A stretch of DNA of 64,000 nt from an uncultured Verrucomicrobiae bacterium (GTDB taxonomy: Bacteria; Verrucomicrobiota; Verrucomicrobiia; Chthoniobacterales; UBA10450). The position numbers and the translations under genes are program-made. Below are positions 19,049-62,377 of this stretch, piece after piece. The stretch's first letter is position 1, and each line of letters opens with the position of its first letter. The notes under the pieces were generated by a model. It had not been told where the DNA came from. It ran no database searches and saw nothing but the letters and a program-made list of their open reading frames with translations. The DNA lies in contig CAWBIE010000001.1 of NCBI GenBank assembly GCA_963788855.1, positions 89,437 to 153,436 of the forward strand, written 5' to 3'.

Positions 19049-19245
19049 AGTCGAATTTGAGAGGGCGCCAGAGGCACCAAACAGATAACAGGCCGCCTCC
19101 TGCAAACCGCTCGCCCGCTGGTTGACGCAGGCATGCCTCGGGGGCATATTTCGCGCTCATTCAGATTGCAGGGCAGGCGGTCGCCGCGGCGGCCGTGCCG
19201 CGCCAAGGACGGCGATCCACTGCCCCGCAACTGCAAGGACCTCTC

Positions 19246-47914: not shown

Positions 47915-49702
47915 TTAATCTTTCTCGACTGCGTCTTTCGCCAGTGGCGAGAAAGGCGAAAAACCCTTTTCAGGAGCAACTGACCAAATCACAGCAAGGC
48001 GGTCGGTATCCGTGAGACTCCGGATTTCGTGGTGCCCGGCCGGGAGGTAGCGGGGACCGTCAAATGGCGTCCCATCGAGAAAAGCCACGAGGTTCCCGCG
48101 CTCGGGGAGAAGTTCGTAATTCGCAGGAATCACAATATCGAACTCATATTTTTTCGGAAATTCCTGATCGGACGTGCTGAGCATCTTTCCCAGGACCCGA
48201 ATGCGGAACGCAACCGGGAGGTAATTCTGCTCGATAAAACTGCGCGCCCGTGACGGCATTCGAAGGACTGTTGCGACTGGTGCCCGCGTCGCAATCAGGT
48301 GCTCAGGAATTTCGTCCTTAATCAGGCCGAGTTCGAGACGGCGCAGGGTCACTCCCTCCAACACATAGTAAAACGGTCTGCGCCGAAAAATCGTCTCACC
48401 TTTGGCGTCCATCACGAAATCGCTCTTTGACGTCAGAATCTGGACGTTTGCAATCATTGTGATGGTGTCACGCAAGGCACGGGGGCGCAGTGGATAGAAA
48501 AGGAGCAGCGCGACAATTTCCCCGCCAGCGACGAGTGGGAGCGCGATCGATCGGAAACGATAATCCTGGCAACAATTGACAGATTCCAACAGTGTCCAAG
48601 TCGCAGAGACAACAAGTAGAAACACCAGTGGAACAATTGGGAGAACGTCGTGCGGTTCGACGAGTGGCCAAAGAACACCGAGTAACATGCAGAACGCAAT
48701 GGAAGTTAGCGCGATCAAGGCGATCCGATCTCGCTTGGTCGCTTCAATCGCGTTGCGCCAGCTCAAATAGCCACCAACACATGCCAGAGCTGTTAAAGGA
48801 ACCAGCAATAGCACTCGTTTCGCCAGGTCCGGCCGAAACAAGCCCGGCACAACGTTGTGCTGGATTACACAGTAGTAGAGACTCGGCAGCGCCTCTTTGC
48901 GGGCAAAGAAAGCGACGACAAGTGCGGGGATGAGGAGGGCACCAAAAAGAGCCGCGGTCGCAAGGGTCATGAGGCGTTTCCAATCGAGGCCCGTTTTGCC
49001 AATGGCTTTCGAAGCAAGAATGACAATCAACGCAACGCTCAGCGATATTACCAGGGCACTCGTCTTCATTGAAGTAGCGAAGCTCGCCCCGAGGGCTAAT
49101 CCGGTGAGAAAAGCGTTCCTCAATTCAAGGGGCCGTTTGACCAGGGCCAGGACCGACAACAGCCAGAGCAGCGCCCAAAGGTCATCCGTGCGAAACTCTG
49201 TGGACTTGACAAAAAATATTGGGTAGGCGCCGGTGAGAACGGCAGTCCAGATTCCAATGCGCCGCGAGAAAAGAATCGTTCCGCACCTATAGATACACCA
49301 CAGGCACAGAAAATAGAGGGGGACCATCGCCAGGCGCATCGCAATGACGATGTCGGCCCGTTCACCCAGCGCCCGAAAAAGGGGGACACAAAGAACTTGA
49401 AAAAGCGGCGAATGATTGTCGAAAAAGTCGCGATATGGAATGAAGCCATTCGCCCAGCCCCAGACTACGTGAAGGTGTTGAGTTTCATCGGAGTCGATAC
49501 GGAGAGTGAATACGCAAACAAGTTTCAACGCTGCGAGAAGCGTGAGAAAAAAGATCGCGATGGCTCCCTCAAATCTCGCAAAGAATCCCAGGATTCGCTG
49601 CGGGACTAAATTGGCGGAATTGTCCATTGCCTGATCCACATTTTCATCGCTTTCCACGGTGCTTGTTTTCGGACGCTGGATGGGAACTCCGCGGGATTCC
49701 AA
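47915..49702 (-). CDS. Polytopic membrane glycosyltransferase-like protein (GT-C fold suspected)
   Basis: Intact 595-aa ORF. First loop RIDSDETQHLHVVWGWANGFIPYRDFFDNHSPLF with an acidic DxDE-like motif, about 10 TM helices, C-terminal soluble domain. Family assignment is tentative. Confidence 0.45.
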   Translation of the reverse strand: MESRGVPIQRPKTSTVESDENVDQAMDNSANLVPQRILGFFARFEGAIAIFFLTLLAALKLVCVFTLRIDSDETQHLHVVWGWANGFIPYRDFFDNHSPLFQVLCVPLFRALGERADIVIAMRLAMVPLYFLCLWCIYRCGTILFSRRIGIWTAVLTGAYPIFFVKSTEFRTDDLWALLWLLSVLALVKRPLELRNAFLTGLALGASFATSMKTSALVISLSVALIVILASKAIGKTGLDWKRLMTLATAALFGALLIPALVVAFFARKEALPSLYYCVIQHNVVPGLFRPDLAKRVLLLVPLTALACVGGYLSWRNAIEATKRDRIALIALTSIAFCMLLGVLWPLVEPHDVLPIVPLVFLLVVSATWTLLESVNCCQDYRFRSIALPLVAGGEIVALLLFYPLRPRALRDTITMIANVQILTSKSDFVMDAKGETIFRRRPFYYVLEGVTLRRLELGLIKDEIPEHLIATRAPVATVLRMPSRARSFIEQNYLPVAFRIRVLGKMLSTSDQEFPKKYEFDIVIPANYELLPERGNLVAFLDGTPFDGPRYLPAGHHEIRSLTDTDRLAVIWSVAPEKGFSPFSPLAKDAVEKD

Positions 49703-49795: not shown

Positions 49796-51442
49796 ATGCA
49801 CGCCGCTTTTTATCAGTCTGAACTTGATCAGCCGCACCCGAACCGTGCGCGCGCTATCATAAGTGCGCATCCGGAGGTTCGGCAGTTAATGGTGAGAAAC
49901 CCATACACTGCGCTCATCGCTCTGTCGGTCGTGGTTCTGCAAACATCAATCGCGTATCTGATGGGCAGATTAGGATTCAGTTATTGGTGGCTCAGTATGT
50001 TGGTCGCCTACTGCGTGGGCGCCTTCGCCAATCACTGCAATTACGTCATTATCCACGACGCGACCCATAACCTGATTCTTCGCAGCAAGAGCTGGAACAA
50101 AATAGTGGGAATCATGGCCGATCTTCCCAACCTCACGGCCGGTGCGATGGGCTTTCGTGTTTACCATCTCAAGCACCATTCGCATCAGGGGAATTACGAA
50201 TGGGACGCTGATTTGGCCAACCATTGGGAGGCACGGCTCGTCGGCAATAAATGGTATCGCAAAGCGATCTGGCTGATGCTCTTCCCGTTCTTCCAGCTAA
50301 CGCGCCCGCCGCGTCTGAAGGCGATCACGATGTGGGATCGATGGTTTCTGATCAATCTCGTCTGGGCGGCGGCTTACGATGTGGCGGTGGTTTATTTTTG
50401 CGGATGGGCCGGGCTGCTTTACCTGGTTTTTTCGTTTTTCTTTTCCATCGGCCTTCATCCGGTAGGTGCCCGCTGGATCCAGGAGCATTACACCAACGAT
50501 CCGGAGCAGGAGACCTACAGCTACTACGGGCCGATCAACTTCCTGGCCCTGAACATGGGTTATCATAACGAGCACCACGATCTGCCTTCGATTCCATGGA
50601 ATAATCTGCCGAAACTGCGGGCAATGGCGCCGGAATTTTACGATAATCTGAAGTATCACTCATCCTGGAGCCGGCTCCTTTTCCAGTTCATTTTCGATCC
50701 GCGTTACACGTTGTTCTCGCGAATCGAGCGCGCCAAAGAGAGAAAGGACGGCTCGTCTTATGTCGCGACCGGAAGAGTAGACCGGACAGGGCCGGTCGCT
50801 TTGCCGCCGAAGCGACCAGCCTTTAGCCCCATGGAACAACTCTACGTCTCGAACAAAAACGAAACGGTCCGCATGTTTGAGAGCGACTTCATGGAATTCT
50901 GCTCCCACGTGCATCCGGCCACACCCGTGATCTTGTACATGCCGGTCGTTGGCTACATGCTTTACGCCTCTTTTGCGCACAAGAAATTGTCGATCCTGGC
51001 GGTGGCGGGGTTATTTGTGATCGGGGTGCTGATCTGGACGCTTCTCGAGTACATCATACACCGCCACGTTTTTCATTATGAACCAAAGAGCCGGTGGGGA
51101 AAAAAACTGCACTTTATTGTCCACGGCGTGCACCATGATTATCCGAATGATGCCACCCGGCTGGTCATGCCACCTAGTGTGAGCATTCCGCTGGCGATTG
51201 TATTCTGGGTGCTTTTTGCCGCGACACTGGGCCGGTTCGCGCCGGCCGTCTCCGCCGGATTTGGATTTGGCTACGTCTGTTACGACAGTATTCATTACGC
51301 GACGCACCACTTTGCTATGAAGCGAGGGGTTGGGCTCTGGCTGAAACAGTATCATCTTCGCCATCATTATAAGGACGATGAGGCGGGTTATGGGGTCAGC
51401 TCCCCTCTCTGGGATTACATTTTCCGGACCACCCGCAAGTAG
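49796..51442 (+). CDS. Fusion protein: sphingolipid Delta4-desaturase (DEGS1/DES1-like) N-terminal domain + fatty acid 2-hydroxylase (FA2H/Scs7-like) C-terminal domain
   Basis: Residues 1-~320 align by eye with human DEGS1, with His boxes [15 protein letters not shown] and [34 protein letters not shown] (human: [30 protein letters not shown]). Residues ~345-548 align with the FA2H catalytic domain: [63 protein letters not shown]. A single uninterrupted 548-aa ORF. Confidence 0.85.
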   Translation: [548 protein letters not shown]

Positions 51443-51686
51443 GGCCTGATCTGGCAAAATCCGAACGAACTCGGGCAAGACTGGCCCCACTAAAATCTTG
51501 TGGGGCGTCGTAGAATCGCTACAGTAGTTGCCCCGACATGGGACTCTATCGCGCGCGGCCCTGGAAGCCCCGGCGGGAGAGCCTACCCATAAGGTAATTA
51601 CCAATTCCTCGAAATATTATGAGCAGCCATGTGCTTGTGAACGAACAACATCTTATTGCCGGGGGCGGCATCACGGGCGCGTGGCG

Positions 51687-52940
51687 ATGAACCAGGATCC
51701 CTTCAAACTTAGCCTCGGTAACTTTCTCGCCGCCGGCGAAAGTTCCAACCCTCTTCAAGCCCCGGCCAGCTTCACAAATTGGGTTCGCGAAAGCGCGTGG
51801 GCCCGCGAGTTCTACGAGCCGGAGTTACTCGGTACGGCGGACGCGCGCACAACCGTCACCTACGACGGCAAACCCTGCTCCGTCATCAACCTCTGTTCCT
51901 ACAATTATCTTGGCCTGGCCAATCACCCGGAAGTGCTGGCCGCGGCCCAGGAGGCCCTGAAGACGCACGGTCTGGGGGCGTGCGGCGCACCCATTCTTTC
52001 CGGCATGACCGATCTGCATCGGGAGCTGGAGCGGCGCGTTGCCGAATTTCTTGGCCGCGAGGATGCCATGCTTTTCAATAGCGGATTCGGCGGCGCGCTC
52101 GGTACGATTTCCGGAATGCTGCGCAAGTCCGATGTGGCGATTCTCGATAACCGCTCGCACCTCAGCTTGCGCGATGGCGCCGTCCTGTCGCGCTGTCGCA
52201 CGGAGAAGTTTGAGCATAACGATCCCGCTTCACTCGACACCGCGCTGCGCCGGCAGCAAGGCCGGCGTCAGCTTGTCATCATGGAGGGCATCTATTCCAT
52301 GGACGGCGACTTCGGTAATCTGGAAGAGCTGATCGAGGTGGCCGAGTCTCACGGCGCCAGGACCTTTATCGATGAAGCGCATTCGATGCTGGCCTGCGGT
52401 GAAAATGGTCGCGGCGCTGCCGAGAAATTCGGCGTAGAAGATCGGATTCCGCTCGTCTACGGCACGTTTTCCAAAGCCTTTGCTGCGCTCGGTGGATTTG
52501 TGGCGGGCCCGAAGGAAACGCTCGAATACCTGCGCTTTTACGCGCATCCGTATGTTTATTCCTGCGCGCTGCCACCGGTGGTGATTGCTGGAATTATCAA
52601 AGCGCTCGAGATCGGCATTCGGGAGCCGGAATTGCGAACGCAACTTTGGGAAAACGCCGAATACTTCCACACCCAACTGCGGGGTCTTGGTATCGATACG
52701 GGTGCTTCGACGACCTACGTCATGCCGATCGTCATTGGAGAGCGCGAGCGCATGTACCGGCTGTGCCACGAATTGCGCCGGCGCGGTTTGTGGGTTGCCC
52801 CGGTCGATTATCCGGCCGTGCCCTTGAGTCGCGTCTGCTTCCGCGCCTGTGTCACGGCCAAGCATACGCGGGCGGATCTCGACGAAGCGCTGAACATTCT
52901 CGAAGACACACTCGTCCCGGCGATGCTGCAAAGCGCCTGA
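51687..52940 (+). CDS. Alpha-oxoamine synthase family PLP enzyme, candidate serine palmitoyltransferase
   Basis: ATG 51687. NLCSYNYLGLANHPEV, FNSGFGGALG, DNRSHLSLRDG, EGIYSMDGD, FIDEAHSMLACGENGRG and the PLP-lysine context YGTFSKAFAALGGFVAG. The SPT assignment rests on genomic context (adjacent DEGS/FA2H homologue) plus the presence of a separate kbl in this window. Confidence 0.7.
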   Translation: MNQDPFKLSLGNFLAAGESSNPLQAPASFTNWVRESAWAREFYEPELLGTADARTTVTYDGKPCSVINLCSYNYLGLANHPEVLAAAQEALKTHGLGACGAPILSGMTDLHRELERRVAEFLGREDAMLFNSGFGGALGTISGMLRKSDVAILDNRSHLSLRDGAVLSRCRTEKFEHNDPASLDTALRRQQGRRQLVIMEGIYSMDGDFGNLEELIEVAESHGARTFIDEAHSMLACGENGRGAAEKFGVEDRIPLVYGTFSKAFAALGGFVAGPKETLEYLRFYAHPYVYSCALPPVVIAGIIKALEIGIREPELRTQLWENAEYFHTQLRGLGIDTGASTTYVMPIVIGERERMYRLCHELRRRGLWVAPVDYPAVPLSRVCFRACVTAKHTRADLDEALNILEDTLVPAMLQSA

Positions 52941-52961: not shown

Positions 52962-53888
52962 ATGCCCGAACCCATCGAGCCGACGCTTTCGCCTCTGGAA
53001 GCGACTTACAAGACGCGCGACGTCGAAGGCATCCTCGATCTCTATTTTTATCGGAAGCTCGCTTTTAAACTGGCGACCCTTTTCGCGAGACTAAAGATTA
53101 CGCCGACGGCGGTGACAGTTTTCGGCGGGTTCCTCGGAATCCTGGCCGGGCATCTTTATTTCTATTCCGATCTCTTCACAAACATCGTGGGAATGGTCCT
53201 CCATGTTTGCGCAAATACGCTCGATAATGTCGACGGTCAGCTGGCCCGTTTGCTCAATCAAAAAAGCAGGTCTGGCCGGGTAATCGACAGTCTGTTCGAT
53301 CATTTGATATTTCTGAGCATTTACGTGCATCTCACCCTGCGCTGCCTGGTCGCGGGAGCCTCGCCCGCGGTCTGTCTGCTCGCCCTGGCCGCCGGTCTCA
53401 GCCATGCGCTGCAGGGCGCGGCCGCGGACTATTATCGCAACGGCTATTTGTACTTTGTGAAGGGCCAGGCGGGCGCGGACTGGGATTCCTCCGATTCCCT
53501 TCGAGCCGAGTATCGGCAACTGAGCTGGTGGGCGGAACCGTGGAACAAATTCCTGCTCGCGTCCTATCTCAACTTTACCTGGCAACAGGAATGGCTCTCG
53601 CCGGCGTTGAAACGTTTGCGCGATCTCACCGTGCGCACTTTCCCGGGCGAGATACCAGGGTCGTTGCGGCAGCATTATCGGGAGACAGCCCAGCCGATGC
53701 TCCGATGGTGGGGATTACTCATGACCAACACGCGCATGCTGTTTCTCTTCTTCTTTTTGATCATCGATCGGCCGGCCTGGTTTTTTTGGCTGGAGCTAAG
53801 CGTGTTCAATCTCCTGCTCGGCCATCTGATTCTGCGGCAGGAAAAAATGTCGCTTCTTCTGTGCAAAGACGTGACCGAGGCGGCCTGA
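52962..53888 (+). CDS. CDP-alcohol phosphatidyltransferase family membrane enzyme
   Basis: Perfect family signature D(x)2DG(x)2AR(x)8G(x)3D(x)3D in LDNVDGQLARLLNQKSRSGRVIDSLFDHL. Multiple TM helices. Confidence 0.8.
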   Translation: MPEPIEPTLSPLEATYKTRDVEGILDLYFYRKLAFKLATLFARLKITPTAVTVFGGFLGILAGHLYFYSDLFTNIVGMVLHVCANTLDNVDGQLARLLNQKSRSGRVIDSLFDHLIFLSIYVHLTLRCLVAGASPAVCLLALAAGLSHALQGAAADYYRNGYLYFVKGQAGADWDSSDSLRAEYRQLSWWAEPWNKFLLASYLNFTWQQEWLSPALKRLRDLTVRTFPGEIPGSLRQHYRETAQPMLRWWGLLMTNTRMLFLFFFLIIDRPAWFFWLELSVFNLLLGHLILRQEKMSLLLCKDVTEAA

Positions 53889-53913
53889 GGTCATATAAGT
53901 TTGCTCCAATCTC

Positions 53914-55047
53914 GTGTCGCAAATTGAAATCTCAGAAGTCAGGTCGCGTCGGGACCGCGATGCTTTCATTAAATTTCCGTGGCGCATTTACAAGGATGAT
54001 CCCGCCTGGGTTCCCCCTTTAATCATCGAGCGCAAAGCCTTTCTCGATCGAAAGCGGCATCCGTTTTACGAGCACGGCGATGCGGCTTTGTTTCTGGCGC
54101 GACAGAATGGCGAAATCGTCGGCCGAATCATGGCGAGCGACGATCCGAATTACAACGCGCTTCATCAGTCGAACGTTGGCTGTTTTGGACTATTCGAGTG
54201 CATCGATAACCTCGAGGTGGCGGCCGCGCTCCTGCAGGCGGCCATGGATTGGGTAGGAAAGAAAGGACGCGAGGAAATCATGGGGCCGATCGATTATTCG
54301 ACCAACTATGTTTGTGCGTTGCTCATCGACGGGTTTCAATATCCGCCGACCCTTCTGACATCGCACAACCCGCCCTATTACGCGAAATTGCTCGAAGGCT
54401 GTGGCCTGGCCAAAGTGAAAGACTGGTACGCGTGGTGGTTTTCCGAATATACGGAACCGGCCGAGCGACTTCGAAAAATTGCGATGGCCCGCGCGAGCAA
54501 ACAGGGCGTCTCGATTCGACCGATCAATTTGAAGGATGTCGAGGGCGAGAGTCAGCGAATCCGGGCGATTTACAATCAGGCCTGGGAGAAGAACTGGGGG
54601 TTCGTGCCGTTCACAGAATCTGAAATTCTACATATGGCCAAGGAGATGAAGCCGCTGATTGTTCCGCAGGGAACTTTGCTGGCGGAGATAGCAGGCGAGC
54701 CAGTCGCGTTTGTCATCGCCGTTCCCGACATTCATGTTGCTTTTCGACGAATCAACGGGCGATTGACGTGGTTCGGACTTCCGATTGGCTTACTCAAGCT
54801 TCTCTATTATCGAACGAAGATTCGCACCGGGCGGTTGGTCGCGCTCGGAGTGGTGGAGAAGTATCGCCGCGCTGCCATCGCTGAGATGCTCGTGCTGCAT
54901 CTGATGGACGCGGCGTTCAAGCGCGGATTCACCGGCGAACTCAGTATGACTCTTGAAGACAATGTCATGATCAATAGTTTCATTGAATCGATGGGCGCGG
55001 CCAGATACAAGACTTACCGCATTTACCGGAAAGTTATCAAGGAGTGA
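53914..55047 (+). CDS. GNAT-like (double acyl-CoA N-acyltransferase fold) protein, candidate N-acyltransferase
   Basis: Intact 377-aa ORF (GTG start). N-terminal FIKFPWRIYKDDPAWVPPL...GRIMASDDPNYN...GCFGLFE and C-terminal NQAWEKNWGFVPFTESE...GEPVAFVIAVPD...GVVEKYRRAAIAEML resemble proteins usually annotated as N-acetyltransferases. Recognised from memory only. Confidence 0.45.
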   Translation: MSQIEISEVRSRRDRDAFIKFPWRIYKDDPAWVPPLIIERKAFLDRKRHPFYEHGDAALFLARQNGEIVGRIMASDDPNYNALHQSNVGCFGLFECIDNLEVAAALLQAAMDWVGKKGREEIMGPIDYSTNYVCALLIDGFQYPPTLLTSHNPPYYAKLLEGCGLAKVKDWYAWWFSEYTEPAERLRKIAMARASKQGVSIRPINLKDVEGESQRIRAIYNQAWEKNWGFVPFTESEILHMAKEMKPLIVPQGTLLAEIAGEPVAFVIAVPDIHVAFRRINGRLTWFGLPIGLLKLLYYRTKIRTGRLVALGVVEKYRRAAIAEMLVLHLMDAAFKRGFTGELSMTLEDNVMINSFIESMGAARYKTYRIYRKVIKE

Positions 55048-55070
55048 CGGCTTCCTCAGCGGTCCGGGTT

Positions 55071-56402
55071 TCATTCGGCCCCGACAGCTTTTGGGGTCGC
55101 TCGTTGGATTTGCGATCCCTTGCGCAGCTGGCAAAACACCCAAATCGCACGGGGCAAATGCAAGGCCGCCGTGGCCAGGACTAACCAAGGCATGATGATG
55201 AAAGCTTGGGCTGTCGCCCCGAAGAGAAATCCAATCGTTAGCATCCAGACCATGACATTGCGCCGTCCGCCAATGAGATGCACGAGTCGTTCGAATGTCC
55301 CCAGTTCCTCGATCGATCTGCCGGTCGCGAAACGAACGCCGGATTTCAGGATTCCATCGACCCCTTGGGCCAAAAGGAGCAAGGTGAGGTAACGAAAAGC
55401 GCCGGGTACTTGCCCGGAGTTATGCAAATAATAGGCAAGAGCAATCCACCATGAGATTTCGAAAAATGCATCGAACCAATGCTCCAGTTTTCCGTGCTTG
55501 GTTGTCTCGACTTTGACGCGCGCCTGTTTTCCATCGAGACCGTCGAGAACGCCGACGATTAAGGCGAGGGTGAGGCCCCAACCGAGCCGGCCAGTAGCCA
55601 AAAGAATCGTCGCGCTCCAAGCGACGACGTTGGTAAGAATCGTCAACTGGTTAGGTGTGATCGAAGTTTCGCAGAGGTGGGAAACAAGAAATGTCTCGAT
55701 CGGGCCATGAATGATCGCGGGAAGGTCGAGCGTGCCCTTTTGAGCTGAATCGAGAAGGACCCATTTGGCCAGCTTCGCGCGCTCTGGCGTTGGGGCCGGG
55801 AACCAATAGGCTCTTAGCTTTCGGTTGAGCGGCGCATAATACAGAGGTTCGGTGGCCACATCCGCCGCCGCCAGCGTTTGGTCCTCCAAACCTGTGCGCA
55901 AGACATCTGGCAGGGATCCCGTGCGAGAGCGGGCCCAGTCGCGTCGCAGGAACGCCGGTCCGCAAAGCTTGCCGCGTTTTGTTGGAGGTGCAGAAGCAAC
56001 CAGCGAGGAACGTCGAGCCGGCACAGCGGAATCCACCAGCGCGGCCGGCTCGTCGTACGAAAGAAACATCCGCAAGAGCCGCTGATCTAACACTGAATTA
56101 GCGGGAAGAATGAGCAGAAGTTCAACGCTGTCTGGCCAGAGATCGGCAATGTGTTCCATCGTCACAGGGCCGACCGGTCGCACGCAGATTGTCAAATCGA
56201 GTTCGGCGCGCGCCCATGATGGTCTGGCCAACTCTTGCGCGATCCGTTCGGGAGTGCTTGACAAAACAATCGCCCGTTTGAATCCGCATCGCTGGAGTGT
56301 GCGTAATAAGCGTTCAAGTATCGAGATTCCGCACAATTTGATTAACGCGCTCGGACTGTCCGCCAGAACCACGCATTGCTCAGTCATTGTTTCTGGTCGC
56401 AA
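55071..56402 (-). CDS. Fusion of a degenerate nucleotidyltransferase-like domain with a CDP-alcohol phosphotransferase membrane domain (IPCT/DIPPS-like architecture)
   Basis: N-terminus VVLADSPSALIKLCGISILERLLRTLQRCGFKRAIVL has the layout of an NTP-transferase fold but lacks the GxGxR loop. The C-terminal TM region carries LDGLDGKQARVKVETTKHGKLEHWFDAFFE, a variant of the CDP-OH-P transferase motif. Confidence 0.65.
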   Translation of the reverse strand: MRPETMTEQCVVLADSPSALIKLCGISILERLLRTLQRCGFKRAIVLSSTPERIAQELARPSWARAELDLTICVRPVGPVTMEHIADLWPDSVELLLILPANSVLDQRLLRMFLSYDEPAALVDSAVPARRSSLVASAPPTKRGKLCGPAFLRRDWARSRTGSLPDVLRTGLEDQTLAAADVATEPLYYAPLNRKLRAYWFPAPTPERAKLAKWVLLDSAQKGTLDLPAIIHGPIETFLVSHLCETSITPNQLTILTNVVAWSATILLATGRLGWGLTLALIVGVLDGLDGKQARVKVETTKHGKLEHWFDAFFEISWWIALAYYLHNSGQVPGAFRYLTLLLLAQGVDGILKSGVRFATGRSIEELGTFERLVHLIGGRRNVMVWMLTIGFLFGATAQAFIIMPWLVLATAALHLPRAIWVFCQLRKGSQIQRATPKAVGAE

Positions 56403-57111
56403 TCAATTTCCGGGCATGTTCCAGCGTCTCGGCCGAATCGACATCCTGCCACCATGCGTTGCCGATATCGATCGCCCGAACTTTTCCATCAGCGGCCATC
56501 AATCGGACACCATCGGCCAGACTGCAATCTCCATCGCGTTTCGCTTTCTCCAGACATGCGAAAATCTCCGGCGAACAAACAAACAAGCCGGTATCGATTG
56601 CGTCGTAGTCTTCGAGGTTTTTGCCGATCGCAACGAGCCGGTCTTTGCGCGTCTGGACTTTCATTGCGTCATCTAAATCGAAAATGCAATCAAGTTTTCG
56701 GTCGACCGCGAGAGTCAGTTCATTGGCGTTGGAGCTTCTCAGGAGAAGATCGACAATCGAGTCTTCAAAAATATGGTCGCCCATTGTCAGGATAAATGGT
56801 GCATTCACGCTAGGGGCCGCTGCCAGCACAGAAATGCCATTTTGTTTCTGCCACTCCGGGTTTTCGATCCAAAATAAATTCATGCCAGTAGGAATCAGTG
56901 GCATTATTCCCGCCCGCAGCGAATCGCTCTCGAATCCAATGACAGCGTGAATCGTTTCGATGCCTGCCTTGGCGAGGGTGTCCAAAGTGTAAGAAATGAG
57001 AGGCCGCCCGCTCAGAGAGATGAGCGGTTTGGGCGAATTCTCGCCACTGCGCCGCAGCCGCGAGCCCGATCCGGCCATAAGAATGACCGCGTTAGAGATC
57101 GGCTTCTTCAT
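56380..57111 (-). CDS. Nucleotidyltransferase (sugar/alcohol-phosphate cytidylyltransferase-like)
   Basis: AVILMAGSGSRLRRSGENSPKPLISLSGRPLISYTLDTL is the canonical NTP-transferase N-terminus. 243 aa. The 23-nt overlap with the downstream fusion gene suggests coupling. Confidence 0.75.
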   Translation of the reverse strand: MKKPISNAVILMAGSGSRLRRSGENSPKPLISLSGRPLISYTLDTLAKAGIETIHAVIGFESDSLRAGIMPLIPTGMNLFWIENPEWQKQNGISVLAAAPSVNAPFILTMGDHIFEDSIVDLLLRSSNANELTLAVDRKLDCIFDLDDAMKVQTRKDRLVAIGKNLEDYDAIDTGLFVCSPEIFACLEKAKRDGDCSLADGVRLMAADGKVRAIDIGNAWWQDVDSAETLEHARKLIATRNND

Positions 57112-57485
57112 ATTCCGTAATATCTCTTCAAGTTCGAGAGACGGGCAGTTGTGGCAGAACTGCGCGTGGTGAGCGGTTGCGCGATTGCGTCTGATCCCGG
57201 AGCTGCCCCGGTGACCCGCTTTTTCGTCGGATTATGGCATCGTGAGTTAAAGATTGTCTACGACGCTGCACTAGTCAGTTTCCCGGATGGCTGTGGCTTC
57301 ATGGCCATTGACGTTACCCGTGTGTCACTCTCGGCAGTTTCGTTCCAAATCTCCGGATCTGACACGCGTTTCAGGCTGTGCCGTTGAACGCGGGGGAATC
57401 ATAGCCTTTAAGGTCGTGGCCCGCTTGAGAGTCGTCTGAAAGGAATTCTGCTGGCAAGTTCCCGCGGAATGAATCTCTTCATGTC

Positions 57486-58525
57486 GTGAAGTCGCGGATC
57501 GTTCGGGAGATTGAAAACATTCGGGTCGGCAGAACCAACATCGACCGTCGGCAATTGGTGATAAGCCGGATCATGACGATATTGGTCGGAACTTTAACGG
57601 CGATCGGTCAGTTTGCCTACTCGTCGTTATGGGGACGACGGCAAGCACGATTCATTCGGCAGCTTTTGTCCCACGCTCCCTCGACCCCGAAAGGCCGCGT
57701 GATTGCTTCGTTTTCAACCTTGCCGGATCGAATCAATAATCTCGAGCCAACACTTCGTTCTCTCCTTGAGCAAACACGGCCGCCGGATGAAATCGTCCTG
57801 GCCGTCCCCCAGTTTTCGATCCGTCAACAAAAAAGAGTACGTCGTCCCTAACTATCTCGAGCAAATTCCGCGTCTCCGCATTTTGCGCTGCTCAAACGGA
57901 CTGGGGACCGGCGACGAAATTCATTCCAGTTATTCAAGAGGAGCTGGCCGCCGGTCGCGGTGACACGTTGATTATGGTCCTGGATGACGACCGAGTCTAC
58001 CCGCGGGATGCACTCGAAACGTATCTGCACTACCACGCACGATTGCCGGAGGCCGCGCTTTGTTTTCGCGGTGCACTGATGCCCGACAATTTCGTTTGGT
58101 TTTTACCCAAACTGTTTCCTGCCAACCAAATTCGCGAGCCGAGACGTGTGGCCGTGATCACGGGTACCGCAAGTTATCTTATCCAACCGCGCTTCTTCGA
58201 CTCTGCGCTCTGGGATTACTCCACTTCGCCAGCGAGCGCGTTTTACGTCGACGACATCTGGATTAGCGGTTGCCTGGATCGGCGTGGCATCGAAAAATAT
58301 GTCGTGCCCGCATCCGCCATGATGCGAACCGTCCGAAAGCAATGGGGCACGATGACCCTGTACGATGTGCCAAAGGGCTCCGTGCGGAGCAATACCGAGG
58401 CGATCAAGTTTTTTCGCGATACATGGAATATTTTCTCGTGGCCGTTTGGTCTTGATTATCGACTGCGCGCTCTTCTTCTAGTGTGGCCGGGAACATGGCG
58501 CGCGCGACGAAATAAGCTTTTATAG
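57486..58525 (+). pseudogene. GT-A fold glycosyltransferase (DxD type); two frameshifts as given
   Basis: VIASFSTLPDRINNLEPTLRSLLEQTRPPDEIVLAVP / KEYVVPNYLEQIPRLRILRCSN / DWGPATKFIPVIQEE...LIMVLDDDRVYP...YVDDIWISGC is read across ORFs 57486, 57703 and 57968, with shifts near 57830 (A6 run) and 57898. Confidence 0.6.
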
Positions 58526-59323
58526 TCCGTAGTATTGCTTAAGGCCCCAGATGCGCACTCGCTGCGGGAGTAACCGGAAGATAACGGGCGCGAATTTGGA
58601 TTGGAATCTATCGCCGACTGTCAGGCGCGGCGAGGGATTGACCTGATCGATTAACGCGCAGACGCGTTGGGCAACGAGGTCAGGCCTTGGTGCCCCCTTC
58701 ATGTTGCGTTCGACTGCAGCCCAAACTCTCGCCACCTTAGCGTCATATCGCGGATCTTTTGACGAGCCTTTGCTAATGGCGTCATTAAAGGAGGTGTTAA
58801 TATCCGCCGGTTGCAGGTCGACAATGCGCACGCCTGTATTAGGCAACTCGAGCTGGATCGACATGGTGAAGACCGCCATGGCTGCCTTTGCCGAGTTGTA
58901 GGCTGCCATGAAGGGTACCGGCAAGCGCGAAGCCAGCGAGGTGACGTTGATGATGAGACCCTGTTCTCGCGATCGCATCGCGTGTAGCGCCAGGCGCATT
59001 AAGTGCAGCTGTCCGAATACCAGGACTTGGAATTGATTTTCGATTTCTTCGTCGGAGAGATTTTCCGCTGGTCCAAAATGGCCGCTGCCACCGTTGTTAA
59101 TCAAGACATCGAAGTGGTCAGCTTCTGCGAGCGCGGCGTTGAACGCGTGGTCGATCAAAGCGGCATCGCCGAGATCAAGTCGCACCGGGTGTAGTCGATC
59201 CAACTTTGCCATTCGGCTCGGATCGCGCGATGTTCCCCAGACTTCATCCCCACGGCCGGTTAGCGATCTTGCGATGGCAAGGCCAATGCCGGAACTCGCG
59301 CCAGTGAGAAAAATTCGCTTCAT
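58520..59323 (-). CDS. Short-chain dehydrogenase/reductase (SDR)
   Basis: IFLTGASSGIGLAIA (TGxxxGxG), LINNGG, and the catalytic YNSAKAA (YxxxK). 4-nt overlap with the upstream GT-C-like gene. Confidence 0.85.
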   Translation of the reverse strand: MKRIFLTGASSGIGLAIARSLTGRGDEVWGTSRDPSRMAKLDRLHPVRLDLGDAALIDHAFNAALAEADHFDVLINNGGSGHFGPAENLSDEEIENQFQVLVFGQLHLMRLALHAMRSREQGLIINVTSLASRLPVPFMAAYNSAKAAMAVFTMSIQLELPNTGVRIVDLQPADINTSFNDAISKGSSKDPRYDAKVARVWAAVERNMKGAPRPDLVAQRVCALIDQVNPSPRLTVGDRFQSKFAPVIFRLLPQRVRIWGLKQYYGL

Positions 59324-60819
59324 GAGGTCTGTCCACGATCAATCAAGAACAATCGTAAGAAGTGGTGCTTCACATAGATGACGGGCGAACGGCTGAAGTC
59401 CGCCAAGGGCAAGCGGCGCCAGCCCTCGGGCAAGCGGAAATTTTCATCGTCCGTATAGACCGCGGCGGCGCCTTTTGTCATCTCCCGCAATATATCAGGC
59501 GGCGGGATATGAAGAATGGTGATGAACTCCGGAGCATACCACTCAGCGTGACGCCCAGTGTGGGGGAAGAGGAGTGCGACGTGGCTCCGGGCCGAGCTCG
59601 GATAAAGTCTTTCGAGATACCGAACCAATCGGATAGGAGGCGCCTCCTCGCGATGATTAGTGATTGCTAGGGGGATCGTTATGAAAAGGAGCAAGGCTGG
59701 CAGGGCCAGCGTGCTCCAATCCCAGGGTGCCGGCAGGCGCAAGAACCCGCGCAGCAATGCGATCAGAATAAGAGGAAAAATAATGAGGTAATATCGCTCG
59801 GCGCCATCGAGACAGATGAAAATGGTCGCGAAGTGCAGCAATGCCCAAGGCGCGTGAAAGCTCCAGAAGAGCCGGTCTTCGGCTTCCCGAGGCCGAGATA
59901 AGTAAGCGGCCAATCCGAAAATCACCATCACTGTCCCGACTGCGAGAGCAATCGGCGATTGAAGAAAACCGAAGCCGAGAGCAAACCAAAAAAGAGTATG
60001 TTCACCGAGGCGCATGGCGAGATAATGCAGGCTCCAATCGCCCGCGCCGATGTAAACGTGCGGTTTATCCAACCGCCATTGCCATTGTCCATAAAGGAGT
60101 TTTGGATAGACCAGCCATGCTGGAGCCGACGGTCTGAGGCGCGCTTGCAGATACCACATCGGCACAAGCCAGAGCAGGCATGCCGCGAGCAACGTGCTGA
60201 GGCTAGAGAGCCACGCCTTCCAGGGCGATGACCTTTGCCTCAACGCCGTGACAAGAATGACAGCGACAACGAGAATCAGTTGCGGGCGCGTTCCGGCAGC
60301 CGCGGCGCCAAGCAGAGATGCGGCCAGCAAAGCCCGCCGGCGTCCACTCCGCAAAAAGCAAAGCGCCGCGAAAATTTCGGCGCTGAGAAATCCGGTGGCG
60401 AGACTATCGCTGAGGACTTTTGTGGCCGTCATCCACACGGCGGGTGTGATGGTAAGACAGACGGCTATCCAGCAGGCGAGTCGCTCATTGAATTGCAACC
60501 GGATAATAAGAAACCACATGGCGACAAAAAGCGCGCCGCCGAGGCTGGAAACGAGGTGGAGAGAATCCTCCGGGCTGGCGCCAAATTCGTGGCCGATCCA
60601 ACCGAAAAAGATAAACAATGGATATCCGGGGGGGTGCGGTTGGTGTTCCCAAATATTGAAATTGCGAACCCCCATCGCGAACTGCACCGAATCGTATTCA
60701 TCGAGTCCCGGAGAACGTGAGATAAAATAGAGGGAGAAAGCGATGACAAAAATCAGCGCGGTCTTCAGCGAGGCGCGCGAATCAAGCCAATCCGGCGCGG
60801 TCATTTTCACTTTCAGCAT
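59320..60819 (-). CDS. DUF2723-like/GT-C polytopic membrane glycosyltransferase
   Basis: Intact 499-aa ORF. First loop SPGLDEYDSVQFAMGVRNFNIWEHQPHPPGYPLFIFFGWIG resembles the HPPGYPL signature also seen in 40220-42046. About 11 TM helices. Confidence 0.55.
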   Translation of the reverse strand: MLKVKMTAPDWLDSRASLKTALIFVIAFSLYFISRSPGLDEYDSVQFAMGVRNFNIWEHQPHPPGYPLFIFFGWIGHEFGASPEDSLHLVSSLGGALFVAMWFLIIRLQFNERLACWIAVCLTITPAVWMTATKVLSDSLATGFLSAEIFAALCFLRSGRRRALLAASLLGAAAAGTRPQLILVVAVILVTALRQRSSPWKAWLSSLSTLLAACLLWLVPMWYLQARLRPSAPAWLVYPKLLYGQWQWRLDKPHVYIGAGDWSLHYLAMRLGEHTLFWFALGFGFLQSPIALAVGTVMVIFGLAAYLSRPREAEDRLFWSFHAPWALLHFATIFICLDGAERYYLIIFPLILIALLRGFLRLPAPWDWSTLALPALLLFITIPLAITNHREEAPPIRLVRYLERLYPSSARSHVALLFPHTGRHAEWYAPEFITILHIPPPDILREMTKGAAAVYTDDENFRLPEGWRRLPLADFSRSPVIYVKHHFLRLFLIDRGQTS

Positions 60820-60957
60820 GAGTTTGATTTTCCGGTGGCTAATAGTGCTACGACGGAGACACGATCATTACTCAATTGGCATGGTTCCACAAAGCCTGAC
60901 TTTGACCATAAGCCTCGCATCGTGCAGTTCCGCTGGAATGCGCTATAATCGGCTTCC

Positions 60958-62343: not shown

Positions 62344-62377
62344 GTGTTATTCCATCGAAATGTGGCACGGGGGTTGA

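What the first reader, a model, noticed from the sequence alone, without database searches (positions are those of the whole stretch)
52962..57111. Headgroup module: two CDP-alcohol phosphotransferases and a cytidylyltransferase, one fused to a degenerate NTP-transferase domain
Gene 56380-57111 has an intact GSGSRL-type nucleotidyltransferase N-terminus. It overlaps by 23 nt a gene whose N-terminal half looks like the same fold without the GxGxR loop (LADSPSALIK). The C-terminal half of that gene is a CDP-alcohol phosphotransferase with a variant motif (DGLDGKQAR...GKLEHWFDAFFE). This is the domain order of archaeal/thermophile IPCT/DIPPS (CTP:inositol-1-phosphate cytidylyltransferase fused to a CDP-inositol transferase). 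Here the catalytic transferase appears to have moved to a separate gene, leaving a pseudo-enzyme domain. A second, fully canonical CDP-alcohol phosphotransferase lies at 52962-53888. CDP-alcohol phosphotransferase-family enzymes are known to build phosphoceramides (for example insect ceramide phosphoethanolamine synthase). A ceramide phospho-X synthase, with X being inositol, glycerol, ethanolamine or another alcohol, is therefore plausible. No inositol-phosphate synthase is present in the window, so the alcohol is undetermined.
Basis: partly seen in the sequence, partly recalled or inferred. Interest (0 to 1): 0.7.

Follow-up and report, generated by a model that had tools for sequence, protein, structure and literature searches.

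The report
CDP-inositol-type sphingolipid headgroup gene module
A soil Verrucomicrobia (Chthoniobacterales) sphingolipid gene cluster carries an active cytidylyltransferase and two membrane phosphotransferases, one with a dead copy of the cytidylyltransferase fold. Together they most likely attach phospho-inositol to ceramide; this is a new variant of known enzyme pairs, not a new kind of system.

Summary
Gene 56380-57111(-) is an intact cytidylyltransferase whose best matches are CTP:inositol-1-phosphate cytidylyltransferases. Gene 55071-56387(-) overlaps it by 8 nt, not 23, because the conserved start is the ATG at 56387. Its C-terminal half is a CDP-alcohol phosphotransferase with a variant motif, DxxDGxxAR-x8-G-x2-E-x3-D, found in 84 of 85 relatives. 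Its N-terminal 200 aa has the nucleotidyltransferase fold but lacks the Gly-rich loop and the catalytic Lys. Gene 52962-53888(+) has the canonical motif.

The closest structures are A. fulgidus IPCT/DIPPS and, above all, AF2299, so this architecture is already known. The family is essentially confined to Chthoniobacterales. There the cytidylyltransferase, the SDR, the GNAT, the second transferase and the SPT-like gene are almost always adjacent. Some relatives fuse all three domains into one protein.

No inositol-phosphate synthase lies in the window, but one lies within 10 kb in 10 of 80 related loci. The Caulobacter pair CpgD/CpgA is a direct precedent for this pairing in sphingolipid headgroup synthesis.

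The best reading is a Kennedy-type CDP-inositol route to inositol-phosphoceramide glycolipids. Which transferase acts on ceramide is unresolved. I rate it a new variant of a known kind, of moderate interest.

The parts
56380..57111 (-). NTP: active COG1213/IPCT-like cytidylyltransferase (243 aa)
   Evidence: Pfam NTP_transf_3 and NTP_transferase. NCBIfam IPCT/DIPPS positions 2-218, E 7e-38. PDB hits: T. maritima IMPCT 4jd0 at 2e-22 and A. fulgidus IPCT 2xme at 7e-22, with 29% and 33% identity. JGI names cluster members 1L-myo-inositol 1-phosphate cytidylyltransferase.
57055..57072 (-). GSGSRL Gly-rich catalytic loop of the NTP gene
   Evidence: Translation. Arg aligns with R16 of IMPCT.
55071..56387 (-). 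CAPT2: 438-aa AF2299/DIPPS-type CDP-alcohol phosphotransferase with an N-terminal dead cytidylyltransferase-like domain. The longest ORF runs up to 56402.
   Evidence: P0001 is 100% identical and starts at the ATG at 56387. AF2 model pLDDT 84.3. Foldseek: 4mnd at E 1e-13 and AF2299 at TMt 0.79-0.80.
55788..56387 (-). CAPT2 N-domain (aa 1-200): nucleotidyltransferase fold without the GxGxR loop and catalytic Lys
   Evidence: Foldseek hits to MurU, GMPPA/B and RmlA. hhalign against the NTP profile gives E 0.004 and pairs PSAL with PKPL. A profile search of PDB gives GlmU only, at E 0.16, and shows the loop deleted. Only 177 relatives among 1.84e9 representatives, mostly proteins of this architecture or short fragments. 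Mean pairwise identity 62%.
55470..55544 (-). CAPT2 variant signature DGLDGKQAR-x8-G-KL-E-HWF-D. It is one residue shorter than canonical, and the third Asp is replaced by Glu.
   Evidence: Translation. Alignment to AF2299. Invariant in alignment A2. Present in 84 of 85 family members.
52962..53888 (+). CAPT1: 308-aa CDP-alcohol phosphotransferase with the canonical motif and a helical insert of about 90 aa (aa 156-245)
   Evidence: Pfam 44.3 bits. Best NCBIfam hits are AIPS, DIPPS and PIPS. Profile against PDB: RsPIPS 2e-10, AF2299 4e-9. AF2 pLDDT 85. Foldseek is weak, TM about 0.5.
53223..53300 (+). CAPT1 canonical signature DNVDGQLAR-x8-G-RVI-D-SLF-D
   Evidence: Translation.
57231..57260 (-). 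Promoter-like site upstream of the NTP-CAPT2 bicistron
   Evidence: Consensus scan: 10 of 12 matches with TG. This is a consensus match only.
51528..52940 (+). Context: SPT-like PLP acyltransferase, first gene of the SPT-CAPT1-GNAT operon (21 and 25 nt spacers)
   Evidence: Aminotran_1_2. Scores about 310-330 bits to SPT, BioF and Kbl models, all below their cut-offs. Synteny 32/34.
53914..55047 (+). Context: GNAT acyltransferase, candidate ceramide synthase
   Evidence: Acetyltransf_1. Synteny 48/53. Functional assignment is inferred from context.
49796..51442 (+). Context: sphingolipid delta4-desaturase (Lipid_DES + FA_desaturase) fused to FA_hydroxylase
   Evidence: Pfam. These are separate genes in L081, L084 and L085.
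58520..59323 (-). Context: SDR. Its best specific (equivalog) hit is the 3-ketodihydrosphingosine reductase KdsR, below cut-off.
   Evidence: NF049977 at 158.6 bits against a cut-off of 400. Synteny 43/43.
46061..47188 (-). Context: PIG-L/LmbE-family de-N-acetylase
   Evidence: PF02585, E 2e-22. It pairs with PMT_2 next to the CAPT2 paralog in Udaeobacter loci.
47915..49702 (-). Context: GT-C (PMT_2) glycosyltransferase
   Evidence: Pfam.
59320..63544 (.). Context: second PMT_2 GT-C (59320-60819 -), Wzx-like flippase (60958-62343 +) and GT4 glycosyltransferase (62378-63544 -)

Best explanation
The region is the headgroup module of a sphingolipid biosynthesis cluster in a Chthoniobacterales (Verrucomicrobiota) genome.

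The 243-aa enzyme activates an alcohol phosphate with CTP. The alcohol is most likely L-myo-inositol-1-phosphate, giving CDP-inositol. Its gene is translationally coupled to CAPT2 through an 8-nt overlap, and the two are fused in some relatives. CAPT2 is a six-TM CDP-alcohol phosphotransferase of the AF2299/DIPPS type, and it uses that CDP-alcohol as its donor.

The N-terminal domain of CAPT2 keeps the cytidylyltransferase fold but cannot catalyse the reaction, because the Gly-rich loop and the Lys are gone. It probably serves as a structural or docking module on the cytosolic face, as in AF2299.

CAPT1 has the canonical motif plus an aromatic-rich helical insert. It is co-transcribed with the SPT-like and GNAT genes and performs a second phospho-alcohol transfer.

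My working model is as follows. CAPT1 puts phospho-inositol on the 1-OH of ceramide, a Kennedy-type inositol-phosphoceramide synthase. CAPT2 is DIPPS-like, and the natural DIPPS acceptor is an inositol phosphate. It would add a further phospho-alcohol to the inositol-phosphate headgroup. The neighbouring GT4, GT2, GT-C, PIG-L and flippase genes then elaborate a glycan.

Shown: gene reality, folds, motifs, degeneracy, synteny, fusions, and MIPS linkage in relatives.

Inferred: the identity of the alcohol, the acceptors, the division of labour between the two transferases, and the role of the dead domain.
For: The cytidylyltransferase is active and IPCT-like:
- Best family hit is the IPCT half of IPCT/DIPPS, E 7e-38.
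- Best PDB hits are the two solved IPCTs, at 29% and 33% identity.
- Catalytic R, K and D are conserved.
- TMGDH is identical to A. fulgidus IPCT. It has Met where CpgD uses Asn110 to bind glycerate.

CAPT2 is of the DIPPS/AF2299 type:
- NCBIfam matches DIPPS positions 200-402.
- PDB sequence hits are 4mnd and 4o6m.
- Foldseek gives 4mnd at E 1e-13 and AF2299 at TMt 0.79-0.80.

Functional coupling of NTP and CAPT2:
- Their genes overlap by 8 nt.
- NTP is adjacent in 44/44 main-type loci with enough flank.
- The triple-domain fusion P0019 was assembled identically in three independent samples.

Sphingolipid context:
- The cluster carries the SPT-like gene, the Lipid_DES desaturase/hydroxylase, the GNAT and a KdsR-like SDR.
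- Conserved synteny: GNAT 48/53, CAPT1 45/49, SPT 32/34 (annotated contexts).

Inositol:
- A MIPS gene (PF01658 E 5e-37; TIGR03450 425 bits) lies within 10 kb in 10 of 80 related loci, in several different arrangements.
- By my own estimate, assuming a genome of about 4 Mb, chance would place a single-copy gene within 10 kb in about 0.5% of loci.

Precedent:
- Caulobacter CpgD is an IPCT-like cytidylyltransferase that makes CDP-glycerate.
- CpgA, a PgsA-domain transferase, extends a ceramide headgroup.
- Heaver et al. proposed a CDP-inositol route to inositol sphingolipids in Bacteroides/Prevotella.
Against: - No MIPS is in the 64-kb window or within 10 kb in the closest relatives, L001-L005. 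Whether the source genome has one could not be established.
- IPCT-like sequence does not fix the substrate. CpgD has the same top structural hit, 4JD0, yet uses phosphoglycerate.
- All named-family scores are far below the equivalog cut-offs: 130.8 and 53.8 against 580.
- Both solved relatives of CAPT2, AF2299 and DIPPS, handle soluble substrates. No feature shown here proves that either transferase accepts ceramide.
- The fold search for CAPT1 was uninformative about the acceptor. CEPT1 and CHPT1 hit only at E 0.2-0.5.
- CAPT2's catalytic motif deviates from the eight 'absolutely conserved' residues, so its activity is assumed rather than shown.
Confidence: 0.55

Rival explanations
1. CpgD/CpgA-type module with a different alcohol. 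The cytidylyltransferase would make CDP-glycerate, CDP-glycerol or another CDP-alcohol. The transferases would then build an anionic phospho-X ceramide headgroup as in Caulobacter CPG2, without inositol.
For: - CpgD is a COG1213 enzyme whose top structural hit is also IMPCT 4JD0, with R16, K26 and D112 conserved.
- Its partner CpgA carries a PgsA (CDP-OH_P_transf) domain and sits in a sphingolipid cluster.
- No MIPS is in the window or in its closest relatives.
- The cluster neighbours KdtA and AsmA, which are outer-membrane genes. This fits an LPS-like anionic lipid.
Against: - MIPS is adjacent in 10 of 80 relatives.
- The enzyme is closer to true IPCTs (29-33% identity) than the 24% reported for CpgD against IMPCT.
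- The glycerate-contacting Asn110 of CpgD is Met here, as in A. fulgidus IPCT.
- No CpgC-like gene or cluster-linked ceramide kinase was found. The YegS-like kinase at 27696-28571 is not syntenic in most loci.
Confidence: 0.2
2. The enzymes serve glycerolipid or solute metabolism and are only neighbours of the sphingolipid genes. CAPT1 would be a PIP-synthase-like enzyme (CDP-DAG + inositol phosphate giving PIP, then PI). NTP + CAPT2 would make soluble di-myo-inositol phosphate as in thermophiles.
For: - CAPT1's best solved relative is RsPIPS at 2e-10.
- CAPT2 and NTP match the two halves of IPCT/DIPPS.
- AF2299 and DIPPS process soluble substrates.
- A CdsA-type CTP_transf_1 gene is present elsewhere in the window.
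Against: - Gene linkage with SPT, GNAT and SDR is near-universal and tight across about 60 loci. The operon spacers are 21-25 nt.
- Scores lie far below the PIPS, AIPS and DIPPS cut-offs.
- No inositol-phosphate or PIP phosphatase is in the cluster.
- DIP is a thermophile osmolyte, whereas these are mesophilic soil bacteria. This last point is from background knowledge.
Confidence: 0.12
3. The CAPT2 N-domain is not a dead relic. It would be a functional ligand-binding or regulatory module, for example binding CTP or CDP-alcohol, or heterodimerising with the free cytidylyltransferase to channel product, as inactive GMPPA regulates GMPPB. This is compatible with the best explanation and concerns only the role of the domain.
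For: - The domain is conserved at 62% mean pairwise identity, with invariant polar residues W58, R60, D101, R103, D119, S120, D176 and R189.
- Many relatives keep the 'GD' of the Mg-binding motif.
- Foldseek hits include the GMPPA/GMPPB complex and eIF2B.
- Fusions place the active and dead domains in tandem.
Against: - No direct evidence of binding exists.
- The AF2299 domain is used as an inert crystallisation chaperone, and its fusion did not alter PIPS activity.
- The window's own protein has Asn in place of that Asp (PANS).
Confidence: 0.35

Closest known systems
Archaeoglobus fulgidus AF2299 (PDB 4O6M/4O6N/4Q7C), a CDP-alcohol phosphotransferase with an N-terminal cytidylyltransferase-like domain
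   Same: - Same two-domain architecture: a cytosolic cytidylyltransferase-like domain followed by a six-TM transferase.
- Best fold agreement, TMt 0.79-0.80.
- A weak sequence match even in the N-domain: KLCGISILERLLRTLQRCGF against KLLGLTLRERIEKTLQRAGF.
   Different: - About 16% identity.
- The N-domain here is about 200 aa.
- The signature has G-x2-E instead of G-x3-D.
- The organism is bacterial, mesophilic and a soil dweller.
- The gene is embedded in a sphingolipid cluster and coupled to a separate active cytidylyltransferase.
- AF2299's own physiological role is not established. PMC4634129 associates it with CDP-glycerol and soluble substrates.
Bifunctional IPCT/DIPPS of hyperthermophiles (A. 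fulgidus AF0263, PDB 4MND; NCBIfam NF041135)
   Same: - Same domain order.
- The 243-aa enzyme matches the IPCT half (positions 2-218, E 7e-38). CAPT2 matches the DIPPS half (positions 200-402, E 1.5e-14).
- It is the top Foldseek hit, E 1e-13.
   Different: - Here the active IPCT-like enzyme is a separate polypeptide, or a third domain in fused relatives.
- The domain attached to the transferase lacks the catalytic loop and Lys.
- Scores are far below the equivalog cut-off of 580.
- The context is lipid synthesis, not an osmolyte.
Caulobacter crescentus CpgD (CTP:phosphoglycerate cytidylyltransferase) + CpgA (PgsA-domain transferase) of ceramide diphosphoglycerate synthesis
   Same: - An IPCT-like COG1213 cytidylyltransferase is paired with a CDP-alcohol-phosphotransferase-family enzyme inside a bacterial sphingolipid cluster.
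- The transferase extends a ceramide headgroup.
   Different: - CpgD makes CDP-glycerate, and its glycerate-binding Asn110 is Met here.
- Neither source read here describes an added cytidylyltransferase-like domain on CpgA.
- The first phosphate in Caulobacter comes from a ceramide kinase, CpgB.
- Here there are two transferases, and MIPS is linked in relatives.
- Sequences of CpgA and CpgD could not be retrieved for direct comparison.
Putative alternative inositol-lipid cluster of Bacteroides vulgatus/Prevotella (NTP transferase + CDP-alcohol phosphatidyltransferase + HAD hydrolase next to MIPS; Heaver et al. 2022, PMC9246714)
   Same: - The proposed logic is the same: an NTP transferase makes CDP-inositol, and a CDP-alcohol phosphotransferase uses it to make inositol lipids leading to inositol phosphoceramide.
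- MIPS linkage is present.
   Different: - That pathway is unconfirmed. It routes through PI-DAG and a HAD hydrolase, and no HAD is in this cluster.
- Here the genes sit directly in the SPT operon.
- There are two transferases here, one with a dead domain.
- The phylum is different.
Mycobacterial/Bacteroides phosphatidylinositol-phosphate synthases (RsPIPS 5D92, PgsA1 6H53, BT_1523)
   Same: - CAPT1's best solved sequence relative is RsPIPS at 2e-10.
- It belongs to the same inositol-phosphate clade of the family.
   Different: - CAPT1 scores 40.6 bits against the PIPS cut-off of 170.
- It has a helical insert of about 90 aa.
- No PIP phosphatase is nearby.

Membership tests
CDP-alcohol phosphotransferase (Pfam PF01066) | Score above the Pfam gathering threshold | tested here: met
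   CAPT1 scores 44.3 bits and CAPT2 29.5 bits, against a cut-off of 22.
CDP-alcohol phosphotransferase (Pfam PF01066) | Signature D-x2-D-G-x2-A-R-x8-G-x3-D-x3-D with eight invariant residues | tested here: met
   CAPT1 reads DNVDGQLAR-LLNQKSRS-G-RVI-D-SLF-D.
CDP-alcohol phosphotransferase (Pfam PF01066), applied to CAPT2 | Same signature with canonical spacing and all four Asp | tested here: not met
   CAPT2 reads DGLDGKQAR-x8-G-KL-E-HWF-D. The third acid is Glu and lies one residue closer to Gly. This is a family-wide variant, present in 84 of 85 members. It is a divergent member rather than a non-member.
Bifunctional IPCT/DIPPS (NCBIfam NF041135) | Equivalog score of at least 580 bits | tested here: not met
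   NTP scores 130.8 bits and CAPT2 53.8 bits.
Bifunctional IPCT/DIPPS (NCBIfam NF041135) | N-terminal domain with an active cytidylyltransferase site (GxGxR loop, catalytic Lys) | tested here: not met
   The loop is deleted and the Lys is replaced in the CAPT2 N-domain. GxGxR is absent in 84 of 85 relatives.
Bifunctional IPCT/DIPPS (NCBIfam NF041135) | Fold and domain order: nucleotidyltransferase domain followed by a 6-TM transferase | tested here: met
   Foldseek hit to 4mnd at E 1e-13, with 455 aligned columns.
AF2299-type (cytidylyltransferase-like domain + CDP-alcohol phosphotransferase) | Overall structural match to both domains | tested here: met
   TMt 0.79-0.80 and rmsd 3.8-3.9 A against 4o6m, 4o6n and 4q7c.
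CTP:inositol-1-phosphate cytidylyltransferase (IPCT) | Catalytic Arg (Gly-rich loop), Lys and Asp (GD motif) conserved | tested here: met
   GSGSRL, SPKPL and TMGDH align with IMPCT and AfIPCT. The residues are named in PMC12275187.
CTP:inositol-1-phosphate cytidylyltransferase (IPCT) | Genomic linkage to myo-inositol-1-phosphate synthase | tested here: inconclusive
   Absent from the window. Present within 10 kb in 10 of 80 related loci. Presence elsewhere in the source genome is unresolved.
CTP:inositol-1-phosphate cytidylyltransferase (IPCT) | Enzymatic activity with CTP + L-myo-inositol-1-phosphate | not testable with these tools
   Requires a biochemical assay.
CpgD-type CTP:phosphoglycerate cytidylyltransferase | Glycerate-contacting Asn110 preceding the Gly111-Asp112 motif | tested here: not met
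   The window enzyme has Met-Gly-Asp (TMGDH), as in AfIPCT. The CpgD residues come from PMC13228409. The correspondence was inferred through the shared IMPCT numbering, not from a direct alignment with CpgD.
Bacteroides vulgatus-type alternative inositol-lipid cluster | NTP transferase + CDP-alcohol transferase + HAD hydrolase next to MIPS | tested here: not met
   The NTP gene and the transferases are present. No HAD or PAP2 domain appears in any cluster gene from 46-63.5 kb. No MIPS is in the window.
Bacterial sphingolipid biosynthesis cluster | SPT-like PLP enzyme with an acyltransferase, a reductase and sphingolipid-specific modifying enzymes | tested here: met
   The cluster has the SPT/BioF/Kbl-family enzyme, a GNAT, an SDR with a KdsR-like hit, and the Lipid_DES domain at 32.1 bits against a cut-off of 23. 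SPT equivalog cut-offs are not reached (310-313 bits against 500-670), so the SPT assignment rests on context.

The most novel reading that the evidence does not exclude
Chthoniobacterales, including the very abundant soil genus Ca. Udaeobacter, would make a bacterial counterpart of eukaryotic GIPC/GPI-type lipids.

The proposed lipid is a ceramide carrying phospho-inositol installed directly from CDP-inositol. Inositol would then be linked through its L-1/D-3 position, unlike eukaryotic IPC. CAPT2 would extend it with a second phospho-alcohol, as in M(IP)2C or di-inositol phosphate. A glycan would then be built by GT4, PIG-L de-N-acetylase, PIG-V/PMT-like GT-C enzymes and a flippase, and the lipid exported to the outer membrane.

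In most relatives a viperin/BlsE-like radical SAM enzyme next to CAPT2 would further modify the cytidine-linked headgroup precursor.
Probability: 0.2. Interest if true: 0.8.

Novelty: new variant of a known kind. Interest (0 to 1): 0.5.

Why it matters
Bacterial sphingolipid headgroup synthesis is only partly understood. A Kennedy-type CDP-inositol route to inositol lipids has been proposed for Bacteroides and Prevotella but never demonstrated.

This cluster gives a clean, strongly conserved genetic case. It contains an active IPCT-like enzyme that is translationally coupled, and sometimes fused, to a CDP-alcohol phosphotransferase, and both sit inside an SPT operon. The lineage is Chthoniobacterales/Ca. 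Udaeobacter, which I understand to be among the most abundant soil bacteria. The paper searches here turned up no sphingolipid or inositol lipid reported for it.

The cluster also provides two testable enzymology points. One is a family-wide Asp-to-Glu, one-residue-shorter variant of a signature described as absolutely conserved. The other is a conserved pseudo-cytidylyltransferase domain whose role can be probed against its active paralog encoded next door.

If confirmed, it would extend inositol-phosphoceramide-type lipids to Verrucomicrobia and supply candidate genes for interpreting soil lipidomes.

Tried and rejected
- **N-domain sequence searches.** phmmer against 1.84e9 representatives returned only 177 hits, mostly proteins of this architecture or short fragments. 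A profile against PDB returned nothing significant; the best real hit was GlmU at E 0.16. Only fold comparison and profile-profile alignment show the relationship.
- **MIPS in the source genome.** I tried to decide this by matching contig lengths in a MIPS homolog list. No hit came from a 734,503-bp contig, but only 120 of 8000 hits are listed, so the result is inconclusive.
- **CAPT1 fold search.** It could not tell a lipid acceptor from a soluble one. AF2299 and PIPS matched at TM about 0.5, and CEPT1/CHPT1 at E 0.2-0.5.
- **YegS-like lipid kinase and PTP-like phytase.** I considered the kinase (27696-28571) as a CpgB-like ceramide kinase and the phytase (35217-36197) as an inositol-phosphate source. 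Neither is syntenic with the cluster in most relatives, so neither was included.
- **Exact look-up of P0001.** It found no contig.
- **Papers not held.** The primary structural papers on AF2299 (PMC4098843) and AfIPCT (PMC3133074) are not held. Inositol-binding residues of IPCT could therefore not be checked.
- **Ordinary PgsA/PssA reading rejected.** pgsA scores 30.6 bits against a cut-off of 109, and pssA 23.2 against 107.
- **Fusions as assembly artefacts rejected.** The identical 675-aa fusion protein was assembled in three independent samples.

Full report
**What is in the sequence.** The window (GC about 57%) carries a compact set of genes between roughly 46 and 63.5 kb.

| Coordinates | Strand | Product |
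|---|---|---|
| 46061-47188 | - | PIG-L-family deacetylase |
| 47915-49702 | - | PMT_2 GT-C glycosyltransferase |
| 49796-51442 | + | Lipid_DES/FA_desaturase fused to FA_hydroxylase |
| 51528-52940 | + | SPT/BioF/Kbl-family PLP enzyme |
| 52962-53888 | + | CAPT1 |
| 53914-55047 | + | GNAT |
| 55071-56402 | - | CAPT2 |
| 56380-57111 | - | NTP |
| 57486-58438 | + | GT2, frameshifted |
| 58520-59323 | - | SDR; best specific (equivalog) hit is the ketodihydrosphingosine reductase KdsR |
| 59320-60819 | - | second PMT_2 enzyme |
| 60958-62343 | + | Wzx-like flippase |
| 62378-63544 | - | GT4 |

SPT, CAPT1 and GNAT are separated by only 21 and 25 nt.

- NTP has GSGSRL and the catalytic Arg, Lys and Asp of inositol-1-phosphate cytidylyltransferases.
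- CAPT1 carries the textbook signature, 26 residues from the first to the last Asp.
- CAPT2 carries DGLDGKQARVKVETTKHGKLEHWFD, which is 25 residues. HMMER aligns E302 and D306 with the third and fourth Asp of AF2299 and needs a one-residue gap after the conserved Gly.
- The CAPT2 signature is therefore D-x2-D-G-x2-A-R-x8-G-x2-E-x3-D. It is invariant in a 32-sequence alignment and present in 84 of 85 family members recovered from genomes.
- All homologs start at the ATG at 56387, and P0001 is 100% identical over 438 aa. The overlap with NTP is thus the 8-nt ATGACTGA, not 23 nt.

**The N-terminal domain of CAPT2.**
- An AlphaFold2 model built on 32 homologs is confident: mean pLDDT 84.3, pTM 0.77, and N-domain blocks of 87-97.
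- Against the PDB, the whole protein matches IPCT-DIPPS (4mnd, E 1e-13) and AF2299 (TMt 0.79-0.80). The N-domain alone matches many nucleotidyltransferases, including MurU at TMt 0.70, GMPPA/B, RmlA and UGPase.
- At sequence level the relationship is barely visible. phmmer against 1.84 billion representatives found 177 proteins, mostly of this same architecture or short fragments. A profile against the PDB found nothing significant.
- Profile-profile alignment with the neighbouring NTP family gave E 0.004 over 164 collinear columns.
- These alignments show what is missing. Where active enzymes read ILAAGxGxRMxxDxPKxL, this domain reads ILA-DSPSAL. The whole Gly-rich loop is excised and the catalytic Lys is replaced. 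The 'GD' Asp is Asn in the window protein but Asp in many relatives.
- The domain is nevertheless conserved, at 62% mean pairwise identity against 72% for the transferase half, and it has invariant polar residues. It is a maintained pseudo-enzyme, not decaying sequence.

**Where the family occurs and what travels with it.** A pattern scan of one genome per species found 143 relatives, and the best 80 loci were kept. These 80 are nearly all Verrucomicrobiota/Chthoniobacterales/Ca. Udaeobacter MAGs. The closest, L001, is 82% identical.

For the 62 main-type loci (at least 47% identity), the neighbours among loci with enough flank are as follows.

| Neighbour | Loci with the gene |
|---|---|
| NTP | 44/44 |
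| SDR | 43/43 |
| GNAT | 48/53 |
| CAPT1 | 45/49 |
| SPT | 32/34 |

- Pfam-annotated contigs show the same picture. They also carry GT4, GT2, PMT and PIG-V-like glycosyltransferases, and have KdtA, AsmA and MacB-type ABC genes nearby.
- Two homologs (P0011, P0019) fuse the active cytidylyltransferase, the dead domain and the transferase into one chain of about 675 aa. P0019 was assembled identically in three independent samples.
- The fusion, the universal adjacency and the 8-nt overlap together argue that NTP supplies the donor substrate of CAPT2.

**Which alcohol.**
- NTP's best family match is the IPCT half of IPCT/DIPPS (E 7e-38; the next best hit is at 7e-22).
- Its best solved relatives are the two IPCTs, at 29% and 33% identity.
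- IMG annotates its cluster as inositol-1-phosphate cytidylyltransferase.
- This alone is not decisive. Caulobacter CpgD has the same top structural hit but makes CDP-glycerate.

Two further observations favour inositol.
- First, a bona fide MIPS gene (PF01658 E 5e-37; TIGR03450 425 bits) lies within 10 kb of the CAPT2 homolog in 10 of 80 loci, in several arrangements. In L015 and L058 it lies in the same stretch as the SDR-NTP genes. In L036, L056, L061, L063 and L070 it is separated from the homolog only by a TolC/HlyD/MacB transporter operon.
- Second, the residue before the Gly-Asp motif is Asn110 in CpgD, where it binds glycerate. Here it is Met, as in A. fulgidus IPCT.

Against this, neither the window nor its closest relatives have MIPS nearby, and I could not establish whether the source genome has one.

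**What the two transferases do.**
- Both fall in the inositol-phosphate clade of the family (AIPS, PIPS, DIPPS, AF2299) rather than with PgsA or PssA.
- CAPT2 resembles enzymes that act on soluble substrates.
- CAPT1 has the canonical site plus an aromatic-rich helical insert of about 90 aa. It sits inside the SPT-GNAT operon.
- I therefore favour CAPT1 as the ceramide-directed enzyme. CAPT2 would extend an inositol-phosphate-type headgroup.
- This division of labour is inference. The fold search for CAPT1 did not discriminate between acceptors.

**Comparison with what is known.**
- The architecture 'cytidylyltransferase-like domain + six-TM CDP-alcohol phosphotransferase' is that of AF2299 and IPCT/DIPPS.
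- The pairing 'IPCT-like cytidylyltransferase + CDP-alcohol-phosphotransferase-family enzyme in a bacterial sphingolipid headgroup pathway' is that of Caulobacter CpgD/CpgA.
- The CDP-inositol logic was proposed, unconfirmed, for Bacteroides vulgatus and Prevotella.

What is new here:
- the combination of these elements;
- the family-wide signature variant;
- the separately encoded, and sometimes triple-fused, active enzyme next to the dead domain;
- the two transferases in one cluster;
- the lineage. The paper searches found only Spt-like genes counted in Verrucomicrobiota MAGs and no headgroup work.

**Verdict.** The best explanation, at about 0.55, is a Kennedy-type CDP-inositol headgroup module for an inositol-phosphoceramide-based glycolipid. 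The main rival is a CpgD/CpgA-like module using another alcohol. It is a new variant of a known kind, of moderate interest.

Noticed in passing
L010 8915-9925 (-), and equivalent positions in about 55 of 80 related loci; absent from the window: A radical SAM gene (336 aa, CNLSCGYC) sits divergently between NTP and CAPT2 in most relatives. A paralog at about 29% identity often lies just downstream of CAPT2. Its best solved relatives are viperin (E 3e-13, full length) and the cytosylglucuronate decarboxylase BlsE. From background knowledge both act on cytidine nucleotides or nucleosides, which hints at modification of the CDP-linked headgroup precursor.
   Followed up: partly
L057-L079 (e.g. L063 2495-12775, L061, L070): A paralogous subfamily of CAPT2 (41-45% identity) has the same dead N-domain and the same G-x2-E-H-x2-D variant. 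It lies in a different conserved cluster: MIPS, then TolC/TolC/HlyD/MacB-type ABC transporter, then the paralog, then a radical SAM paralog, then PIG-L, then PMT_2. In the window the PIG-L/PMT_2 pair is instead joined to the SPT cluster.
   Followed up: partly
window 35217-36197 (-): A PTP-like phytase (PF14566, E 5e-28). It is XopH-like at 234 bits, below the cut-off of 500. It lies about 10 kb upstream of the cluster and could release inositol phosphates from phytate. It is not syntenic with the cluster in relatives.
   Followed up: partly
window 57486-58438 (+) and 19195-21061 (+): The GT2 glycosyltransferase gene between NTP and the SDR is read in three different frames relative to its intact ortholog in L082. 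The housekeeping BipA/TypA gene is also split into two ORFs. Both suggest indel sequencing errors in the assembly rather than true pseudogenes.
   Followed up: partly
window 49796-51442 (+): The sphingolipid delta4-desaturase (Lipid_DES + FA_desaturase) and the FA_hydroxylase form one 548-aa ORF here. They are separate adjacent genes in L081, L084 and L085. This is either a real fusion or another assembly artefact.
   Followed up: no
L083 8773-10800, L084 2775-4802, L085 1325-3352 (protein P0019); also P0011: These are triple-domain fusions of about 675 aa: active cytidylyltransferase, dead cytidylyltransferase-like domain and CDP-alcohol phosphotransferase. The identical protein was assembled in three independent metagenomes, in the same sphingolipid cluster context.
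   Followed up: yes
L081 3462-4796 (-), L083 1832-3046 (-): A GT-C enzyme hitting PF04188 (Mannosyl_trans2, which from background knowledge is the PIG-V GPI mannosyltransferase family) is part of the cluster in relatives. It sits alongside PMT/PMT_2, GT4 and GT2 enzymes. Together with PIG-L this recalls GPI or GIPC glycan assembly.
   Followed up: no
window 27696-28571 (-): A YegS/BmrU-family lipid kinase (DAGK_cat + YegS_C; TIGR00147 at 169.5 bits, above its cut-off). From background knowledge this is the same broad family as the Caulobacter ceramide kinase CpgB. It is 4 kb from SPT in L082 but 23 kb away here, and it is not conserved near the cluster elsewhere.
   Followed up: partly
window 47579-47914 (-): A 111-aa ORF starts immediately after the PMT_2 gene. 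Its sequence (…LLLSPWSVHDNFQLTGIKPPLQYWLSALTL…) looks like the N-terminal part of another GT-C glycosyltransferase. It may be a truncated gene or another frameshift.
   Followed up: no
window 30783-32072 (+), 28636-30039 (+); L082 14971-18442: The Kdo transferase (KdtA) and an AsmA-family gene directly flank the sphingolipid cluster in L082. L001, L004 and L081 also have KdtA nearby. In the window, about 19 kb is inserted between KdtA and SPT, carrying a cyclase, a TPR protein, the phytase, peptidases, PIG-L, PMT_2 and the desaturase. The KdtA and AsmA assignments in the window are by ORF length and synteny; the Pfam survey does not say which ORF produced each hit.
   Followed up: no
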